In this document: positions 13,742-41,300 of the stretch, in pieces | How positions within the stretch are numbered: the first letter of the stretch is position 1 | Layout of the letters: each line of letters begins with the position of its first letter | Origin: Naegleria gruberi | Lineage: Eukaryota | Reading direction: 5' to 3' (one strand) | Assembly: GCA_000004985.1 (NCBI GenBank) | Contig: GG738881.1 | Length of the DNA: 64,000 bases | Translations under genes and position numbers: made by a program | Notes under the pieces: generated by a model | What the model was told of the DNA's origin: nothing | Database searches by the model: none | The model's input: the letters and a program-made list of their open reading frames with translations, nothing else

Positions 13742-14287
13742 TGAGAGTGTGAGCTTTTAACATCAACACTACAAACCCCCTCAGTTTGCACTCCTCGCTC
13801 ACAACAAACACAACAAACAATGAAGGAGGATAATGATCAGGGCGGGCACTTGTGTTAATAAGGACAAAAAAGGAACAGTTAAACGCTTAATGCATAAGCA
13901 AGGAAGAGTCGATATTCTTATCTTCCTGAATGGCTGTAAATGGGTTCCAAAAGTGGGCATGCTCATTGGAGTTTTAATACAATGGCAGTTATCCTGTAAA
14001 GTGTGGAAAATTTAAGGCAATGTTACACTAGAGCTGTGGTGTGTGTTGTATTGTATTGTGTGCACGTACTGTTATATTGAGAGAAATGGAGGTGAGCTCT
14101 TCATGATTGTTGTCAAAACAGAAAGGAATCCATTCATAGGTTGATACAATTCCTTCATATACAGTTGAGCCATTCTTTATTTCCTCATTTTGAAACGGCT
14201 GTAGAATTAAGGAGCAATAAGGATAACAAGGTGGAATATTCCTTAATCTTGATTAGTGTTGTGGAGAAACAGTAAATTGAGCATTTT

Positions 14288-15363
14288 TTACAAAATCAAG
14301 AAATTTATGAAAATTACAAAAATTATTGAGAAAGAATTCAATAATTGAATCTGCCAAGATGAAATTTGACTCACTGATCCACTACTCAATATCTTGTTCG
14401 TAATTAGTGATGAAAATGGTGTAATATCTCCATAAACTTTCAGATAACACGATGAGCATAATTTCAGAGCTTTCAACTCTTTCATTCTGGAATAAATTGC
14501 ATTCGAATTGTAGAGAAAGGTGTGGCTTGTTTGGTTGAGGATGGATTGCCAGCCACTTTCGAATGATGGGTAAGAAATGATGGTGGCCTTTTTCAGATTG
14601 GATTTGGCCCAAGTTTCGTATGTGGATTTGGTCACGACCGAAACTATGACTCCATTCTTGTCCATTTCCTTTTCGTTTGCAATGGAAATTGTGGAATTAT
14701 CCTTTTCTGATCGAATAAATCCAGCTCCACTGGCAGCATATGGACCTATCTCAGTTTGAATAGTTTATAATAGTAAAAAAACTTTCGAATACATTAAAAT
14801 GACTTACAGAGTAAGGTAACTTGAGTTTTTCTGTCTTCTGCCCAATTGACTGCTGCAATTGCAACATCACAAACTCCAGAATTTACTGCTTCTTTCATGA
14901 CTTCGAATACTCCATTCGAAACATCGAGTGGAATCATTGTTCCATTCAATTCAGAATGTGTGGAAGGATATTGATTTCGAATAGTTTGAATCAATAATCT
15001 GGCTGCCATATTATTAAAAACCATTCGAGTTGTATCGGCCGATTTTTCATAACATAAATTCAAGTTTAGTTTAGTATAGTTGAAAGTGGCTGGAAATTCC
15101 AAACCACTTCTACACGAATCGTCTCCTGGAAACATGAAACCAACTTCTGTCATGTATTGCATCCATTCCTTACTGTGGACGTATCTATTTCATTCGAATG
15201 TGTATGTTTTTATTAGAAAGTTTGGAATAATTGAAGGATCTTACCTTTGGGTAGCTATGGAAATGACATCCACAAAATTTTGAGAAACATAAACTTGACC
15301 ATAACTATTCGAAATGGTAAACATCACGATGATGAATGCTGCGCAGAGAATTAATTTCAGCAT
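14288..15363 (-). CDS. secreted bacterial-type solute-binding protein family 3 (PBPb) domain protein, 3 exons
   Basis: Exon 1 (~15245..15363) is a signal peptide (MLKLILCAAFIIVMF…). Exon 2 (~14808..15184) and exon 3 (14288..~14745) encode a type-2 periplasmic-binding fold (…GVCDVAIAAVNWAEDRKTQVTLL|CPYAASGAGFIRSEK…KSTYETWAKSNL…). Introns are ~60 nt with GTAAGA/GTAAGT donors. The hydrophobic C-terminal tail is a possible GPI signal. Confidence 0.65.
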
Positions 15364-15779
15364 TGTTCGAAACTTTTTTTTAAATTATGAAAAACCTAAT
15401 GCTTACTGGTTCGAAATTGACAGTTTTAATGTCATTTGCATGTGAGAGATTGAAATGTTGAAAGATGCAGTCCAATACAGATGCGCCATTTTCAATGCTC
15501 CTTTGATTTGGTAATCGCAATTATCATGATTAGTAATGAAATGAATTGATTGATAGAAATGGATGCTTTAACATTAGAGAGATAGTACATATTCTTACGA
15601 GATTGTAAATTGTTCATACCGTAAATAATTTCAAAATTGTCTCTTGTCAATGGATGATTTGGAATATTAACAGAGAGATTGTAAATTCTGACGCAATTGT
15701 AAATTGTTTATCTGTAAATAATTTCAATCTAAAATGGATATTATTGAAATATTACAGCTATCTTGTTAAATACTTTTTA

Positions 15780-16038
15780 TAAATCAATAAATTAATTTTA
15801 TTAAAGATTAATATTAAATCATATAGCAGATTGTATATCAGAATGGCGTTCTTTTGGTTACTCCAAGTTTAGAACAGTACTCGTCACGTCACAATCAATG
15901 AAATAATATAATCCTTAATGGTTCGTTAAGTTTAACGACCACACGATGAAACAATTTTTGAAAACTATCATTCCACTATAATAGTTCTTAATTACAATTT
16001 GGAATAATAGTAAATTGTTTCAATAATTCGTGTGGTCC
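15780..16038 (-). promoter_or_regulatory. 3'UTR of selenoprotein TrxR, expected to carry a SECIS element (exact structure not resolved by hand)
   Basis: A SECIS must sit downstream of the UGA-Gly-UAA terminus. AUGA cores occur ~68 nt and ~217 nt after the stop on the minus strand. A perfect 9-10 bp inverted repeat (plus 15946..15954 GACCACACG and 16029..16038 CGTGTGGTCC) brackets the first AUGA. Confidence 0.4.
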
Positions 16039-17760
<1,722 letters not shown>

Positions 17761-24638: not shown

Positions 24639-24646
24639 AAAAAGGT
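24639..24646 (-). terminator. Pol III oligo-T terminator after tRNA-Cys
   Basis: Minus strand reads ACCTTTTTAAAA immediately after the discriminator. Confidence 0.5.
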
Positions 24647-24735
24647 AGGGTGGTACGTGGATCGAACACGTGACCATCGGATATCTGCTGCAAATTACAT
24701 TGCAATCCGGTGCTCTACCGCTGAGCTAACCACCC
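24647..24735 (-). tRNA. tRNA-Cys (GCA) with 17-nt intron
   Basis: Minus strand reads GGGTGGTTAGCTCAGCGGTAGAGCACCGGATTGCAA[TGTAATTTGCAGCAGAT]ATCCGATGGTCACGTGTTCGATCCACGTACCACCCT. It has a 7-bp acceptor stem, a T-loop TTCGATC, anticodon loop TTGCAAA with a canonical 37/38 intron that pairs with the anticodon, and the Cys-typical U73 discriminator. A T5 run follows at plus 24639..24643. Confidence 0.7.
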
Positions 24736-24876
24736 CTTCGATCATTACTTTTAAATATTCATTTCTATAGGAACAATATCCTTAATCAACTTTTGTTTAT
24801 AATTGTAATATTTTATTTAATTGAATAGTTTAGTTAGAAACAATTTAATATGTGAGATTTTCAAGTAGTGGTGTTG

Positions 24877-33880: not shown

Positions 33881-33953
33881 TGGGGTCAGTGAGGATCGAA
33901 CTCACGACCTTAGGATTATGAGACCTACGCGCTACCGACTGCGCCATGACCCC
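33881..33953 (-). tRNA. tRNA-Met (CAT), elongator type
   Basis: Minus strand reads GGGGTCATGGCGCAGTCGGTAGCGCGTAGGTCTCATAATCCTAAGGTCGTGAGTTCGATCCTCACTGACCCCA. The anticodon loop is CTCATAA and pairing is G1-C72, not the initiator A1:U72. It closely matches eukaryotic elongator tRNA-Met. A T7 terminator lies directly downstream. Confidence 0.85.
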
Positions 33954-36468: not shown

Positions 36469-38085
36469 TTACAAAATAAATTGATTCTGGTTCACAGAGA
36501 GAATCATCAATACTCCATCTCCTTGATCTGAAGCTTGTTGTTGAGATTTTGCAATATTAATTTCACTGTGATAATAATCATCTAGAAATGTAGTTGCTTT
36601 GAATCCAAACTTGGTGTAGAGTCTCTGAGCTGGTAAATTGAAAGAGGAAACATGTAATTGAATCCACAAACACTTCTTCCAATATTGAACAAATCCGCTT
36701 TGCATAGTTGGATAGTTATTCCAATATTTACATTCCTCTTCCTCAGTGTCAGCTATTTGGTCAACATTGACAATAACATGTTCATTAGAATTTAAAGATG
36801 AAACATAGTATGTTGTTTCAGAGGTATCTAAATTGCAGGCATTCGTCGTTGGTGTGATTGAATATTGAGAGCTTTGTACTTCATCATTCATTGATCTCCA
36901 CATCCAAGAATAGGTCAGAACATGTTGAATGGTAAATCTTAACAATTCCTGCCCAATTCCATTCTTTCTCAAATCTGGATGAACTGCAAATGAGGTAATT
37001 TCACATCGTTGCTTCTCCTTATTAATATTATAGGTAATGTAACCTGCAACAATGAGAGATCCAAAAATGTTGGTGTTATTCCTAGTACAAGCAACCCAGG
37101 TGAAATTATCAACTGGTTTTTCATGATTATTACATAGAGATTGTTTAAATGCCTGATAGAGATACTTCTTATCTAGTGGTTTTGAAAAGCAAGAGCATTC
37201 AATATCGTACAATGCCTCAAATGTTTGATCTGAGAATGGATAAATGAGAATATCTGCTGTCTTTTCTGTTGGACGAATATCAATCGAGTTGGAAGGAGAA
37301 TTATTTACATGATTTACATCCAATTGATTGGTTTGATCTGGTAAAATATCATTAAAATTGTCAACATAGATACTTTCAGCAATTCTTCTTGGTCTTTTCA
37401 TAATTGGAAGAGCTGATTGTAAGAATACATGATCAGACGGATGTGAAAATGATGAATTATTCGTAGTACTGGAATCAGTTCCACTCGTTACAGACATTGT
37501 ACTGACATTTAGCATCGATCCAGTTGTCTTTCTAATATGATTCTTCATACAAGTTGAGCACAAATCGAAATCTCTACAATTCAAACAGTGAAATCTCGTT
37601 CCATGAATGCTACACTCACATCCATCACAAGTAACACCCTTGTGAACTATCTTCCCCTGAACTATCTGAACTTGTTCCAAATTAAATGAATCAATTGGTT
37701 TGGTAAATAATTCATAATCTTTACAGTATTGATCAGCAACAAGCACTCCATTCTTTGATATTTTCTTATCCAATAATCCAATTCTTTCCAAAAGCGGATA
37801 TTTAAATTTTCTATTCAATACCAAAGCAAAACAATGTCCCTTTTTCTGATGATGTTTACCTTGTTCCTTTTTACAATTTAAACAGAGAGTATAGGCTGTT
37901 TGTTGAGAGGAAAGCGAACAATTTAAACAAATGGACATGATTTGATTTTCATTGATTTTTGATTTACAATTTTGACATGTACATTGATCGCTCCGATGAT
38001 GAATATCATTATTGAGAGGATGACCGGTCGAGGAAGAAAAAATGTGATTTCGAGAAGTAGCAGCAGGTTGGCGCAAATTGTTCAT
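36469..38085 (-). CDS. ZZ-type zinc-finger + GNAT N-acetyltransferase domain protein
   Basis: The ZZ finger reads VTCDGCECSIHGTRFHCLNCRDFDLCSTC, with N-terminal Cys clusters. The C-terminal GNAT fold reads …IVAGYITYNI…EITSFAVHPDLRKNGIGQELLRF…AQRLYTKFGFK. Confidence 0.65.
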   Translation of the reverse strand: MNNLRQPAATSRNHIFSSSTGHPLNNDIHHRSDQCTCQNCKSKINENQIMSICLNCSLSSQQTAYTLCLNCKKEQGKHHQKKGHCFALVLNRKFKYPLLERIGLLDKKISKNGVLVADQYCKDYELFTKPIDSFNLEQVQIVQGKIVHKGVTCDGCECSIHGTRFHCLNCRDFDLCSTCMKNHIRKTTGSMLNVSTMSVTSGTDSSTTNNSSFSHPSDHVFLQSALPIMKRPRRIAESIYVDNFNDILPDQTNQLDVNHVNNSPSNSIDIRPTEKTADILIYPFSDQTFEALYDIECSCFSKPLDKKYLYQAFKQSLCNNHEKPVDNFTWVACTRNNTNIFGSLIVAGYITYNINKEKQRCEITSFAVHPDLRKNGIGQELLRFTIQHVLTYSWMWRSMNDEVQSSQYSITPTTNACNLDTSETTYYVSSLNSNEHVIVNVDQIADTEEEECKYWNNYPTMQSGFVQYWKKCLWIQLHVSSFNLPAQRLYTKFGFKATTFLDDYYHSEINIAKSQQQASDQGDGVLMILSVNQNQFIL

Positions 38086-38150
38086 TTTTTTCTTTGGTTG
38101 TTTACAATCTCTTCTATTTTTGAATCAGAGTTCATGTAAAATCATAAGAG

Positions 38151-38157
38151 GACAAAA
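38151..38157 (-). terminator. Pol III oligo-T terminator after tRNA-Ser
   Basis: Minus strand reads TTTTGTC directly after the discriminator. Confidence 0.5.
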
Positions 38158-38238
38158 CGTTGAGGATGGGATTCGAACCCACGCGGATTACTCCACCAAC
38201 TTAGCAGGCTGGCGCCTTAACCACTCGGCCACCTCAAC
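38158..38238 (-). tRNA. tRNA-Ser (GCT), class II with long variable arm
   Basis: Minus strand reads GTTGAGGTGGCCGAGTGGTTAAGGCGCCAGCCTGCTAAGTTGGTGGAGTAATCCGCGTGGGTTCGAATCCCATCCTCAACG. The D-arm is identical to animal tRNA-Ser, the anticodon loop is CTGCTAA, and the discriminator is G73. A TTTTGTC terminator follows. Confidence 0.9.
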
Positions 38239-38377
38239 TTACGATTTAATCTTTAAAATGGCAAACAGAACTGTAACACTTACAACCTTAGTAATCTCTG
38301 GAAATTCTATGCTTCAGAGGATAAAGATAGCAATTATTATGCAATATTATCCTCCAGAACTGGTAGACAGTTTATTC

Positions 38378-41300
38378 TTAAATATCTTCTCCTGCTGGAC
38401 TAATCATTATGGAAATCTTATCCAAATCATTGCCAATAGATATGGAAGACCTATTTGGACGCATCACAATTGGATTCACATGATGTTTCTCCTTTACAAG
38501 ATATGTTTTACATTCACCTTTTCCTTTTACCGAAACTTTTCTTTCTTCAAATTCGAATAAATCGTATGTTCTTTCGTAGGTACTTCGAGAAAGTTGGATT
38601 CGTCCTGGTACCCCAGTAGATTCCATTCTTGAGGAAGTATTGATGGTATCTCCCCATAAGTCTGTTTTTAATTATAAATATTCAATATTTTTGTAACAAA
38701 TTGTAATGCATAGTTAAAATATCGAAAAACATACCATAGGCAAATTTCTTTCTTCCAATCACACCAGCAATAACTCCTCCAGTATTCAATCCAATTCTAA
38801 CATTCAATTGTGAATCTAAATTTTCAGAATTATATGAACGGATTACTGACAAGGTGTCAATTGCAAATCTCAAAGTTCTTTCTGGATGATCGGATTGAGC
38901 ATTCACACCATGCAATCCTCCAACACAAAAATACGAATCCCCAATTGTTTTTATCTTTTCCAAATTGTATTTATCTGTCAAATCATCAAATCCGTTTACA
39001 ATTCTATTAAGCATTAGAACTAGCTCAGAAGGATTCATGTTAGAACTCAAATTTGTAAATCCAACCCTAAATAGATTATTTTCTAATAAATTCAAGGAAC
39101 TTACATATCACTGAAATAACAAGTAATGTCAGAAAATCTTTCGGCAATGAAAGTTTCTCCATTTTTAAGTTTCGTCGCAACTTCTTCTGGAAGAATGTTC
39201 CTTAATAAATTTTCAGAATTTTTCTTCTCCTCCGCAAGTAAACTATTCTGTTTCTTTTCCATTGTAATGTCCTTAATAAATAGAGAAACAAATGAGCTAT
39301 TGTTAATTTCAGTTCCAAAAATGCTCACTTTGGCGGGAAATTTACTCGAATTCTTTCGAATACAATCAATTTCCAATACTTCTCCCAATTCATTTTCTTC
39401 CCCTTTCGTATGGTATTTGAATTCGCCAGTTGCTTTCTTCATCAATTCGTGAAAAGACGGATCAAAGAGTGTTGTGAAGGATAAACCCAAAACGTCAACT
39501 GCTGATTTTCCAAACATTTTCTGAGCTGCAATATTGATAAATGTCACTTCTCCTCTTTCATTACATGTGACAGCTCCTTCTACCATTGAATTGAGAAGAT
39601 TCTTAATGGCATCGTCATATTCAGTCTTTCGTTTCACATGTGAACTATTAGAAAGTGTATTATTCACAATGAAATTCTTCAAAATATCATTCGAATCTAA
39701 ATAATCTATTGGAATGTAATTCAAAAACGTTCTCAATGTGGTAATATCATAATCAGTTGTGTGAAAGCTCATATAAATGTAATAATTAAAAGCAATCAAG
39801 AAGAAAAATCCAAACACAAAGAATACAATACTAATCACTTTCGATGATGAAGTAGAAGAAAGTGTTGTCAACAATTCCAATAATCTCTCAATCATTTCAT
39901 CTGTCATGTTAAATATACTGAGATAGTACAAAAAAGTGTCAGGTGCCTTTGCATAGAATGGATTCAAAATATCTTCATTGAATTTTGAACACAAATGAAG
40001 AACAGTTGCAACTAATTCTTGTAAATCATAACACGTTCCATTTAGACATGTAAGTGGAGCAGTAATTACCTCGTCAACTCCTGGATATTTGTTGAATATT
40101 GAGCTTGTCAAATTTCCACCGAATAAAAGTTCTGCAAATTGAGATTGTGCTTCAGAAATGTAGATGCGATTATCAGAGTGGTATGTATCTAGATTGGATT
40201 GATTGGCTAATGCAGGATCGTTAACAGAATGCCCTGACTTGATACCATAAAAGGCAAACAATTCACCCAATCGGACATTTAATCTTGTGCAAGCTCTTAT
40301 CACTGATGTGGCTGTGTCCACATTGACCATGGCCTGAGATGACATGGCCACATTCAGATTATTTTCCACATACATAAATGAAATACAAAGTGAAAATACT
40401 ATTAAGGAAAGAAAACCAATACTAAGGGACATGAATTTTGGACTAACTACCCTTCTCAAATGTTTCACTTCCTGAGTGGACCGTTTTTGAAGATCATGAT
40501 AGACGGATCCGACGAATTCTTTGGGAATCTTACTGAATAGGTTGATTATTCGAGAAGATTTAGACATTCCAATTCTGGAAATTATTAAAAATGTTCCATA
40601 AATGATAATTAATACAAATGTGGAAGTAAATAAGTAAATTCTCAAAATTCTATCAAGTAGCAAATTCTGAGCCCTCTTTCTAATCTGAAATTTTGAACAA
40701 AAAAGACCATTCGCCTCACTTGCAGCTCTTCTATTAAGGTAAGTATACATAAATTCATAAGATTTGATCGTTTCATTGTAATTCTTCCAATTGTAAATAA
40801 TTTTCGTGTTGGATATGAATTCTCTCGTCAACTCACTCATGGAAATGTTCTTCTTGTAGCTCGTCGTGTAAACTCTATCACTGGTGCTTACACTTGCTGT
40901 AGGAACAACAATCGGATTAATCACAGCTTTGTAATCTTCAACCATTTGTGTTGTAAACTGTGGTGATATTGAATTAGCAGCTAGATTTTGTAAATATTGC
41001 AAAATCCTTTTCAATCTACGTTGGTGATTATTCAGAAAATATTGAATAGTTTCATATTCAGAGGAATTCACAGCTGGTTGACTAATATTTAGATTATTGT
41101 AAAGCTCATTGTAAATTTGTCCCATTCTCACTTCACGCATCAAACTTGAAGGACTCGTTCCAGGTAAGCAAGAATCCAAAGATAATGGAATTTCCGTAAC
41201 TAAACTTCCCAAAACAATGCAAAGAATGAATGCAATTAAAAGTAAAACTATCTGAAACAAGGCTAAACCAATTAATGTGTAATTTCGTACTTTGGATTGA

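What the first reader, a model, noticed from the sequence alone, without database searches (positions are those of the whole stretch)
14288..15363. Stand-alone secreted bacterial-type solute-binding (PBPb/SBP_bac_3) protein with host-like introns
The three-exon gene encodes a signal peptide, a full type-2 periplasmic-binding fold and a hydrophobic C-terminal tail (possibly a GPI signal). In eukaryotes this fold normally occurs only inside ionotropic glutamate receptors, not as a free secreted protein. Unlike the ester-cyclase fragment it has typical short GTAAGT introns and AT-rich codons, so it is an integrated, likely functional gene. It might be an extracellular amino-acid or ligand sensor.
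Basis: partly seen in the sequence, partly recalled or inferred. Interest (0 to 1): 0.5.

Follow-up and report, generated by a model that had tools for sequence, protein, structure and literature searches.

The report
Naegleria surface solute-binding protein gene
This is a real, intact three-exon gene of the amoeba Naegleria gruberi for a secreted, probably lipid-anchored protein with the two-lobed fold of bacterial amino-acid-binding proteins; it is one divergent member of a sizeable, undescribed gene family of these amoebae, so it is moderately interesting but not unprecedented.

Summary
On the minus strand, three exons (15363-15245, 15184-14808, 14745-14288) encode a 317-aa protein with a signal peptide, a bilobed type-II periplasmic-binding (SBP_bac_3) fold and a C-terminal GPI-type signal. 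The window is Naegleria gruberi and the gene is NAEGRDRAFT_69863, annotated only as "predicted protein". Alone, the protein scores below Pfam's cut-off. A profile of its relatives matches bacterial polar-amino-acid binding proteins (E=1.8e-21) far better than glutamate-receptor ligand-binding domains (about 5e-4). An alignment-based AlphaFold model (pLDDT 91.7) gives the same fold.

It is not a lone transfer. It belongs to a family of about 69 clusters (50% identity level) with the same architecture, found in Naegleria, Willaertia, Heterolobosea sp. BB2 and Mastigella. Codon usage matches the neighbours, one intron position is shared with two paralogues, and a second allele gives pN/pS 0.16, so the gene is old, resident and under constraint.

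The most likely role is a cell-surface binder or sensor of a small carboxylate. This paralogue keeps the carboxylate-binding Arg158 but has Asn245 in place of the family's amino-group-binding Asp. Stand-alone eukaryotic precedents exist (PfVFT1, EhVFT). No ligand, anchor or expression data were available.

The parts
15245..15363 (-). Exon 1 (codons 1-39 plus 2 nt): start codon, signal peptide, first helix of the N-terminal extension
   Evidence: ATG 15363 is the first start after an in-frame stop. Family members all have an N-terminal hydrophobic segment.
15298..15363 (-). Signal peptide, residues 1-22 (MLKLILCAAFIIVMFTISNSYG|Q)
   Evidence: 15-residue hydropathy 2.79; small residues at -3 (Ser) and -1 (Gly). 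Rule-based only; no dedicated predictor was available.
15185..15244 (-). Intron 1, 60 nt, GTAAGA...AATAG
   Evidence: The junction is confirmed by ungapped alignment to relatives. This intron is absent in paralogue L006.
14808..15184 (-). Exon 2: rest of the N-terminal extension and lobe 1 of the binding fold
15067..15297 (-). Family-specific N-terminal extension, residues 23-79 (two helices and a loop with conserved Cys64); the span includes intron 1
   Evidence: AlphaFold helices 28-42 and 45-54. This part is not covered by the matches to bacterial proteins. Cys64 is present in 29/32 members.
14830..14832 (-). Codon AGA for Arg158, equivalent to the ligand alpha-carboxylate-binding Arg75 of E. 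coli GlnBP and Arg85 of AncCDT-1
   Evidence: hhalign and HMM alignments. Arg in 31/32 family members.
14746..14807 (-). Intron 2, 62 nt, GTAAGT...GATAG, phase 1 inside the Cys166 codon (T|GT)
   Evidence: The same position and phase occur in two paralogues at about 30-35% identity, L006 and L007.
14288..14745 (-). Exon 3: hinge, lobe 2, return to lobe 1, GPI-type signal, TAA stop (14288-14290)
14393..15066 (-). Type-II periplasmic-binding (SBP_bac_3) fold, residues 80-283; the span includes intron 2
14507..14509 (-). Codon AAT for Asn245, at the position of the alpha-amino-binding Asp (GlnBP Asp157, AncCDT-1 Asp170)
   Evidence: The family has Asp in 25/32 members, and this protein is the only one with Asn. 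The codon is unchanged in the second allele.
14291..14389 (-). C-terminal GPI-type signal, residues 285-317: small-residue stretch S286-S287-G288-S289 (candidate omega site), about 10 polar spacer residues, then an 18-residue hydrophobic end L300-L317 with no cytoplasmic tail
   Evidence: The same layout occurs in nearly all full-length family members and is absent from the bacterial hits.

Best explanation
This is a functional nuclear gene of Naegleria gruberi (NAEGRDRAFT_69863).

Its product enters the secretory pathway through a cleaved signal peptide. It folds into a two-lobed 'Venus-flytrap' domain of the bacterial polar-amino-acid-binding type (SBP_bac_3), stabilised by up to three disulfides from six family-conserved cysteines. 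It is most likely transferred to a GPI anchor at about Ser286/Ser287, so that it sits on the outer face of the amoeba's plasma membrane.

There the cleft between the lobes would close on a small carboxylate-bearing molecule held by Arg158. The ligand is an amino acid or a close derivative for most of the family. For this paralogue it is perhaps a ligand without a free alpha-amino group, because Asp245 is replaced by Asn. The protein has no transmembrane or cytoplasmic part, so the bound state must either be read by an unknown membrane partner (sensing) or serve to capture the ligand for uptake.

The gene belongs to an old, rapidly diversifying family of Heterolobosea (also found in one archamoeba). 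The family descends from a single ancestor whose nearest sequence relatives are bacterial ABC-transporter binding proteins.

Shown here: gene structure, fold, family, selective constraint, and the conserved residues. Inferred: GPI anchoring, disulfides, ligand class, and the sensing or capture role.
For: - Gene model and identity with the NCBI model.
- Organism and family membership.
- Binding residues: Arg158 aligns with GlnBP Arg75 and AncCDT-1 Arg85 (31/32 in the family). Phe133 aligns with the ligand-stacking Trp60 of AncCDT-1. The family Asp at position 245 aligns with GlnBP Asp157 and AncCDT-1 Asp170 (25/32).
- SBP_bac_3 proteins of known structure bind mainly amino acids (PMC10443332), and AncCDT-1 binds Arg/Lys/His/Orn (bioRxiv 10.1101/157495).
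- The secretory and GPI-type features are family-wide and absent from the bacterial hits.
- Six conserved Cys and four N-glycosylation sequons fit an extracellular eukaryotic protein.
- Resident, constrained gene: GC and codon usage lie within the range of 18 neighbouring ORFs. The phase-1 intron in the Cys166 codon is shared with two paralogues. A second allele differs at 7 synonymous and 4 conservative non-synonymous sites, pN/pS 0.16, binomial P=0.004.
- The neighbours are ordinary eukaryotic genes.
- A functional analogue exists: the GPI-anchored stand-alone flytrap protein EhVFT of Entamoeba affects motility and phagocytosis (PMC12965686).
Against: - There is no expression, localisation or ligand data for this gene or any family member.
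- This paralogue departs from the family consensus at several pocket positions: Asn245 for Asp, Thr92-Arg93 for Pro-Trp, Lys205-Ser206 for Gly-Thr. It may therefore bind something else or nothing.
- The GPI anchor is inferred from simple rules. A C-terminal membrane helix, or release as a soluble protein, is not excluded.
- The protein alone does not reach Pfam's curated threshold.
- The allele comparison rests on only 11 coding differences.
- No signalling partner is known.
Confidence: 0.6

Rival explanations
1. The flytrap fold is retained only as a scaffold. The family is a variable surface coat, adhesion or protective glycoprotein family, and this paralogue no longer binds a small ligand.
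For: Family members are only 20-35% identical to each other and many clusters exist, as in surface-protein families. This paralogue has lost the conserved Asp245, Pro-Trp92/93 and Gly-Thr205/206. PfVFT1, a stand-alone flytrap protein of Plasmodium, is a surface-associated antigen of unknown function (PMC13199436).
Against: Arg158 is kept in 31/32 members and Asp245 in 25/32, which is hard to explain without ligand binding. The aromatic lid Phe133 and Glu86 are kept in this protein. The gene is under purifying selection.
Confidence: 0.2
2. The C-terminal hydrophobic stretch is not a GPI signal. The protein is then either a tail-anchored-like single-pass membrane protein or is simply secreted as a soluble binding protein.
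For: No dedicated GPI predictor could be run. AlphaFold models residues 290-316 as one helix. The Mastigella relative ends without a hydrophobic tail.
Against: The layout is the textbook GPI signal (established knowledge): small residues SSGS, a spacer of about 10 polar residues, and an 18-residue hydrophobic end at the very C-terminus with no charged residues after it. It recurs in nearly all full-length members despite low sequence identity.
Confidence: 0.15
3. It is an enzyme of the cyclohexadienyl (prephenate/arogenate) dehydratase type, a group that evolved from this same binding-protein family.
For: Cyclohexadienyl dehydratases and their reconstructed ancestors are among the best PDB matches.
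Against: The top match, AncCDT-1, is a non-catalytic cationic-amino-acid binder. The catalytic general acid Glu173 aligns with Ala248 in this protein. An extracellular GPI-anchored location makes little sense for phenylalanine biosynthesis.
Confidence: 0.03
4. It is a fragment or pseudogene of an ionotropic glutamate receptor, or bacterial contamination or a very recent transfer.
Against: No receptor-like protein is among the 75 hits, and no Lig_chan domain occurs in 32 members. The two lobes are encoded contiguously with no pore segment. Profile E-values are 1e-21 to 1e-8 for bacterial binders against about 5e-4 for NMDA-receptor domains. The gene has spliceosomal introns, host codon usage and eukaryotic neighbours on a 380-kb scaffold. 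It has an intact ORF in a second allele, and one intron is shared with paralogues.
Confidence: 0.02

Closest known systems
Bacterial polar-amino-acid ABC-transporter binding proteins (Pfam SBP_bac_3 / SMART PBPb; e.g. E. coli GlnBP, LAO/HisJ, ArtJ, and the reconstructed AncCDT-1)
   Same: Same two-lobed type-II fold over the full length of the bacterial proteins. These are the best sequence relatives outside the family. The carboxylate-binding Arg and the aromatic lid residue are conserved, and in most family members the amino-binding Asp as well.
   Different: The protein has a eukaryotic signal peptide, introns, a roughly 57-residue N-terminal helical extension, six conserved cysteines, N-glycosylation sequons and a GPI-type C-terminus. 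No ABC permease or ATPase gene lies nearby. This paralogue has Asn instead of the Asp. It scores below Pfam's curated cut-off.
Ligand-binding domain (S1S2) of ionotropic glutamate receptors, including bacterial GluR0
   Different: The domain is not interrupted by channel segments, and there is no Lig_chan or amino-terminal domain. Sequence similarity is much weaker than to bacterial binders (E about 5e-4 for GluN1 and 1e-6 to 1e-5 for GluR0, against 1e-21).
PfVFT1 (PF3D7_0606800) of Plasmodium falciparum, PDB 5jkq
   Different: Only 11% identity in the structural alignment. It is reported to have no recognisable membrane anchor and is probably not GPI-anchored. Homology at sequence level was not tested here.
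EhVFT of Entamoeba histolytica (CL6EHI_096680)
   Same: An amoebal, stand-alone, GPI-anchored flytrap protein lacking any transmembrane domain. Knock-down reduces motility and phagocytosis (PMC12965686). It is the best functional analogy for how a protein like this could work.
   Different: It belongs to the other structural class (type I, ANF-receptor / class C GPCR-like), so the resemblance is by analogy and not close homology.
Cyclohexadienyl dehydratase (PheC/PaCDT)
   Same: Same fold and high-ranking PDB matches.
   Different: The general acid Glu173 aligns with Ala248 here. The context is extracellular and eukaryotic.

Membership tests
SBP_bac_3 / PBPb (type-II periplasmic binding fold, polar amino-acid binders) | Two alpha/beta lobes joined by a two-strand hinge, matching solved members over their full length | tested here: met
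   [not shown]
SBP_bac_3 / PBPb | Score above Pfam PF00497 gathering threshold | tested here: not met
   This protein scores 21.4 bits against a cut-off of 26.4, E=2.2e-4, covering residues 130-227 only. 17 of 32 relatives match at E<0.01, the best at 9.8e-8.
SBP_bac_3 / PBPb | Significant profile-level sequence homology to solved members | tested here: met
   The family profile matches PDB sequences at 1.8e-21 (AncCDT-1), 1.2e-14 (AncQR) and 6e-14 (Glu-binding 5eyf), with 70 hits at E<0.01. hhalign to GlnBP gives probability 95%.
SBP_bac_3 amino-acid binders | Arg that binds the ligand alpha-carboxylate (GlnBP Arg75, AncCDT-1 Arg85) | tested here: met
   Arg158 aligns with this residue; 31/32 in the family.
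SBP_bac_3 amino-acid binders | Asp that binds the ligand alpha-amino group (GlnBP Asp157, AncCDT-1 Asp170) | tested here: not met
   Asn245 is in this protein and in its second allele. The family has Asp in 25/32 members.
ABC-importer binding proteins | Genetic or functional association with an ABC permease and ATPase | tested here: not met
   The neighbours within about 8 kb include Sel1-repeat, thioredoxin-reductase-like, RCC1 and WD40 genes plus two ORFs without a Pfam match. No transporter gene is among them. The rest of the genome could not be searched.
Ionotropic glutamate receptor | Ligand-binding lobes split by pore-forming membrane segments (Lig_chan), usually with an amino-terminal domain | tested here: not met
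   The domain is continuous, and hydropathy in the middle of the protein peaks at 1.45. No Lig_chan hit occurs in any of 32 members. No receptor-length eukaryotic hit was found.
GPI-anchored proteins | N-terminal signal peptide, plus a C-terminal signal of small omega-site residues, a polar spacer and a terminal hydrophobic stretch | tested here: met
   The test was rule-based only: SP hydropathy 2.79; SSGS at 286-289; spacer 290-299; hydrophobic 300-317 at the very end. NetGPI and SignalP were not available.
GPI-anchored proteins | Actual lipid anchor on the mature protein | not testable with these tools
   This needs PI-PLC release, detergent partitioning or mass spectrometry.
Cyclohexadienyl dehydratase | General acid Glu173 in the cleft (E173Q abolishes activity; bioRxiv 10.1101/157495) | tested here: not met
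   Position 173 of AncCDT-1 aligns with Ala248 of this protein.
Heterolobosean SP + SBP + GPI-tail family (undescribed) | Shared architecture, N-terminal AIDAA-type helix, six conserved Cys, and a single clade relative to bacterial proteins | tested here: met
   45 hits at E<1e-10, supported by the alignment and column counts. A neighbour-joining tree puts all eukaryotic members in one clade in 94/100 bootstraps against 7 bacterial sequences (a rough method with a small outgroup).

The most novel reading that the evidence does not exclude
The family is a chemosensory repertoire of amoeboflagellates: dozens of GPI-anchored, fast-diverging flytrap receptors, each tuned to a different amino acid or bacterial metabolite. 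They would signal through an unknown membrane partner to steer chemotaxis and phagocytosis, including in the brain-eating Naegleria fowleri. This would be a third, independent eukaryotic domestication of a bacterial transporter binding protein for sensing, alongside glutamate receptors and class C GPCRs.
Probability: 0.2. Interest if true: 0.65.

Novelty: new variant of a known kind. Interest (0 to 1): 0.4.

Why it matters
Free-living and pathogenic Naegleria find and eat bacteria (and, for N. fowleri, host cells), but their surface receptors are almost unknown. A family of exposed, ligand-binding flytrap proteins would be a concrete set of candidate nutrient or prey sensors and surface antigens. 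It is present in N. fowleri (FDP41_012477, FDP41_000021) and absent from animals.

In evolutionary terms, it shows a bacterial transporter component turned into a lipid-anchored eukaryotic surface protein without being fused to a channel or GPCR. This is the route EhVFT took from the other fold class, which bears on how glutamate-receptor-type sensing modules can arise.

The practical gain for this window is smaller. The gene model's start codon in GenBank should move 13 codons upstream, and the "predicted protein" can be named.

Tried and rejected
- Word-indexed homology search with the protein, with the family alignment and with the Mastigella relative gave nothing or almost nothing. Only the exhaustive HMMER search found the family.
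- Single-sequence AlphaFold was useless (pLDDT 35.5).
- The afdb50 fold library was unavailable, so structural relatives in other eukaryotes could not be surveyed.
- Two metagenome pattern scans for the CDV...R...HFQC|GTARG intron signature found nothing. The first had wrong spacing. The intron question was settled instead by fetching two paralogue contigs.
- The spliced protein could not be looked up by exact sequence.
- A search for a SECIS element downstream of the neighbouring selenoprotein-type reductase found nothing.
- The bacterial promoter/terminator scan is at chance level and irrelevant for a eukaryote.
- Literature searches by gene and protein identifiers, and for Naegleria plus solute-binding protein, found no study of this gene or family.
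- The PfVFT1 structure paper (PMC5563136) is not held.
- Considered and rejected: glutamate-receptor fragment, contamination or recent transfer, and dehydratase enzyme (see rivals).

Full report
**What is in the sequence.**
The feature lies on the minus strand. Reading the reverse complement of 14200-15450 and joining 15363-15245, 15184-14808 and 14745-14288 gives a 954-nt open frame of 317 codons ending in TAA. The introns are 60 nt (GTAAGA...AATAG) and 62 nt (GTAAGT...GATAG). ATG 15363 is the first start after an in-frame stop seven codons upstream. A tblastn of the protein against the window finds only this locus.

**Organism and database status.**
An exhaustive HMMER search of 1.84 billion representative proteins found 75 hits, 45 of them at E<1e-10. 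Exact-sequence look-ups show that the window is Naegleria gruberi. The gene is NAEGRDRAFT_69863 (XP_002674923.1, UniProt D2VLQ5), annotated as "predicted protein" on a 380-kb scaffold. The deposited 304-aa model has the same exons but starts at Met14, which removes most of the signal peptide. All full-length relatives carry an N-terminal hydrophobic segment, so the upstream ATG is the better start. A neighbouring reductase ORF ending in Gly-Cys-TGA-Gly-TAA, spliceosomal introns and an intron-containing tRNA fit a eukaryotic nuclear locus. The flanking genes are Sel1-repeat, pyridine-nucleotide-disulphide reductase, RCC1 and WD40 proteins.

**Fold.**
- On its own, the protein matches only Pfam SBP_bac_3. 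It does so below the curated cut-off (21.4 against 26.4 bits, E=2.2e-4, residues 130-227). It matches PDB sequences weakly (E about 3e-3).
- A single-sequence AlphaFold model was uninformative (pLDDT 35.5).
- With 31 relatives aligned (A1) the picture is clear. The profile matches the reconstructed amino-acid binder AncCDT-1 at 1.8e-21. It matches a long list of bacterial Gln/Glu/Arg/Cys binding proteins at 1e-14 to 1e-7. Bacterial GluR0 scores 1e-6 to 1e-5, and NMDA-receptor GluN1 domains score only about 5e-4.
- 17 of 32 members hit SBP_bac_3, and none hits a glutamate-receptor channel family.
- AlphaFold2 with the alignment gives pLDDT 91.7 and pTM 0.82.
- The model places a family-specific two-helix extension (residues 23-79) in front of a complete two-lobed domain (about 80-283). 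A C-terminal helix follows, which is the hydrophobic tail.

**The family.**
The relatives are about 300-aa proteins with the same plan: a signal peptide, an "AIDAA"-type N-terminal helix, the binding fold, a Ser/Gly/Ala/Asn-rich stretch, and a hydrophobic stretch that ends the protein.

Named members come from these species:
- N. gruberi (NAEGRDRAFT_68554, _76161, _54397)
- N. lovaniensis
- N. fowleri (FDP41_012477, FDP41_000021)
- Willaertia magna
- Heterolobosea sp. BB2
- the archamoeba Mastigella eilhardi (one GC-rich transcript family)

UniProt already labels some N. lovaniensis and N. fowleri members [quoted passage not shown]. The weakest hits (E 1e-6 to 1e-3) are bacterial binding proteins, and these lack the C-terminal tail. 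No hit is a glutamate receptor.

Six cysteines are conserved: positions 64, 84, 145, 166, 262 and 265, in 26-32 of 32 sequences. The query has four N-glycosylation sequons. A rough neighbour-joining tree puts all eukaryotic members in one clade in 94 of 100 bootstraps against seven bacterial sequences. The BB2 and Mastigella proteins branch at the base, and the query sits on a long branch inside the Naegleria/Willaertia group. The nearest relative of the query is only 34-35% identical, so this is a fast-diverging, lineage-expanded family.

**Is the gene resident and in use?**
- The coding sequence has GC 36.3% and GC3 34.9%. Eighteen long ORFs in the window average 35.1±2.5% and 29.5±4.6%. Its codon-frequency correlation with them (0.87) lies within their own range of 0.72-0.89.
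- A metagenome assembly (ENA ERZ929261) carries N. gruberi-like contigs. One encodes a protein identical to the RCC1 gene of this window. Another is a 98.4%-identical allele of this gene, covering 15048-14287 without gaps.
- That allele has 12 differences. One lies in intron 2, seven are synonymous, and four are conservative replacements (T91S, S114T, T160S, S305L). This gives pN/pS = 0.16 and a binomial P of 0.004 against equal rates per site. The numbers are small, but the direction is clear: purifying selection.
- Eight gene-caller fragments in the hit list break off right after the conserved "FQC" with Lys or Arg, the signature of reading into a GTAAG/GTAGG intron. Fetching two of them confirmed a phase-1 intron inside the same Cys codon: CAA T|GTAGG...CACAG|GT GCT TAT GGA in L006, and CAA T|GTAAG...TTAAG|GT CCA TAT GGA in L007. 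This matches the window's CTC T|GTAAGT...GATAG|GT CCA TAT. The intron therefore predates the divergence of paralogues that are now about 30-35% identical.
- Intron 1 is not shared with L006.

These points rule out contamination, recent transfer and a dead gene.

**Binding site.**
Profile alignments to AncCDT-1 use chain numbering that matches the published residue numbers (Trp60, Arg85, Gln100, Asp170, Val173). Together with the alignment to E. coli GlnBP, they map the pocket as follows:
- Arg158 corresponds to the alpha-carboxylate-binding Arg (GlnBP Arg75, AncCDT-1 Arg85). It is present in 31/32 family members.
- Phe133 corresponds to the ligand-stacking aromatic (Trp60).
- The family's Asp at column 245 corresponds to the alpha-amino-binding Asp (GlnBP Asp157, AncCDT-1 Asp170). 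It is present in 25/32 members.

The family as a whole therefore keeps the Arg/Asp pair that recognises the amino-acid backbone in bacterial binders and in glutamate receptors (established knowledge). Solved SBP_bac_3 proteins bind mainly amino acids, especially cationic ones (PMC10443332).

The window's paralogue is atypical. It alone has Asn at 245. It also has Thr-Arg for the consensus Pro-Trp at 92/93, and Lys-Ser for Gly-Thr at 205/206. I infer that it still binds a carboxylate through Arg158. It probably does not bind a standard free alpha-amino acid in the canonical way. This inference is untested.

**Anchoring.**
The N-terminus has a short charged start, a 14-residue hydrophobic core and Ser-x-Gly before Gln23. 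The C-terminus has Ser286-Ser287-Gly288-Ser289, then ten mostly polar residues, then eighteen hydrophobic residues that end the protein. This is the textbook GPI-attachment signal (established knowledge). It recurs across the family despite low sequence identity, and the bacterial homologues lack it. No dedicated predictor was available, so this remains a rule-based call.

**How it most likely works.**
The protein is made in the ER, disulfide-bonded and glycosylated, transferred to a GPI anchor, and displayed on the amoeba surface. There the flytrap closes on a small carboxylate ligand. With no membrane-spanning or cytoplasmic part, it must either hand the signal to a partner protein or concentrate the ligand for uptake.

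The closest functional precedent is EhVFT of Entamoeba histolytica. EhVFT is a GPI-anchored stand-alone flytrap protein of the other (type I) fold class, and its knock-down lowers motility and phagocytosis (PMC12965686).

**Rivals.**
- A ligand-free surface-coat role is possible, especially for this degenerate paralogue. The near-invariance of Arg158 argues against it.
- A non-GPI membrane or soluble fate cannot be excluded.
- A cyclohexadienyl-dehydratase-type enzyme is unlikely. The general acid Glu173 (bioRxiv 10.1101/157495) aligns with Ala248, and the top match, AncCDT-1, is itself a non-catalytic binder.
- Glutamate-receptor fragment, contamination and recent transfer are refuted by the evidence above.

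**Origin.**
The nearest sequences outside the family are bacterial transporter binding proteins, and they are much closer than eukaryotic receptor domains. The family has a narrow distribution (Heterolobosea plus one archamoeba). An ancient bacterial origin is therefore plausible. No donor lineage was identified, however, and the tree used only a few outgroups. Vertical descent with loss, or eukaryote-to-eukaryote transfer to or from Mastigella, is not excluded.

**Verdict.**
1. The gene is one member of a sizeable undescribed family, not a lone acquisition.
2. Stand-alone eukaryotic proteins of this fold are not unprecedented.
3. This paralogue lacks the amino-binding Asp.
4. The GPI anchor is inferred.

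I found no paper on this gene or family in the held library. I rate it a new variant of a known kind, with interest 0.4.

Noticed in passing
window 16039-17322 (-): The ORF for a pyridine-nucleotide-disulphide (thioredoxin/glutathione-reductase-type) enzyme ends ...GGT TGC TGA GGA TAA. This is the Gly-Cys-Sec-Gly C-terminus of selenocysteine-containing thioredoxin reductases. Rfam found no SECIS element in 15300-16100 at E<=1. Its 3' UTR must share the 680-bp spacer with the promoter of the solute-binding gene.
   Followed up: partly
window 15324-15363 (-): The GenBank/RefSeq model XP_002674923.1 (304 aa) starts at Met14 and so lacks 13 residues of the signal peptide. The first in-frame ATG after a stop is at 15363, and all full-length relatives have a complete signal peptide.
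   Followed up: yes
alignment A1, column of query residue 248 (window 14498-14500): 20 of 32 family members have Asp at the position that is the catalytic general acid Glu173 in cyclohexadienyl dehydratase (Val173 in the non-catalytic ancestor AncCDT-1). The window's protein has Ala. It is unknown whether this acidic residue binds a cationic side chain or has another role.
   Followed up: partly
proteins P0002 (NAEGRDRAFT_68554) and P0037 (Willaertia magna KAL9652493.1): P0002 (462 aa) contains about one and a half copies of the domain, nearly identical to each other. This is either a tandem duplicate or a merged gene model. P0037 (557 aa) has a fragment of an ABC-transporter-like protein fused in front of a complete signal-peptide-plus-domain unit, which is probably two genes merged by the annotator.
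   Followed up: no
loci L001, L002, L006, L007 (ENA ERZ929261 / PRJEB11402): One public metagenome assembly contains contigs of an N. gruberi-like strain. They comprise a protein identical to the window's RCC1 gene, a 98.4%-identical allele of the gene studied, and two paralogues. Prokaryotic gene callers split the intron-containing genes into fragments, and these then sit in protein databases as separate 'proteins'.
   Followed up: partly
loci L003-L005 (JGI 3300057222, 3300057245; Logan SRR29605744): A distant, intron-less family member (P0078, 318 aa) recurs on at least 24 metagenome contigs next to a Band_7 gene. JGI names it 'ABC-type amino acid transport substrate-binding protein'. The organism is unknown.
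   Followed up: no
window 24644-24736 (-), 33881-33953 (-), 38158-38238 (-): Three tRNA genes: Ile(AAU), which at 93 nt probably contains an intron, Met(CAU), and Ser(GCU). The Ser gene lies inside a mechanical 160-aa ORF on the other strand (38078-38560), which is therefore probably not a gene.
   Followed up: no
[not shown]
   Followed up: partly
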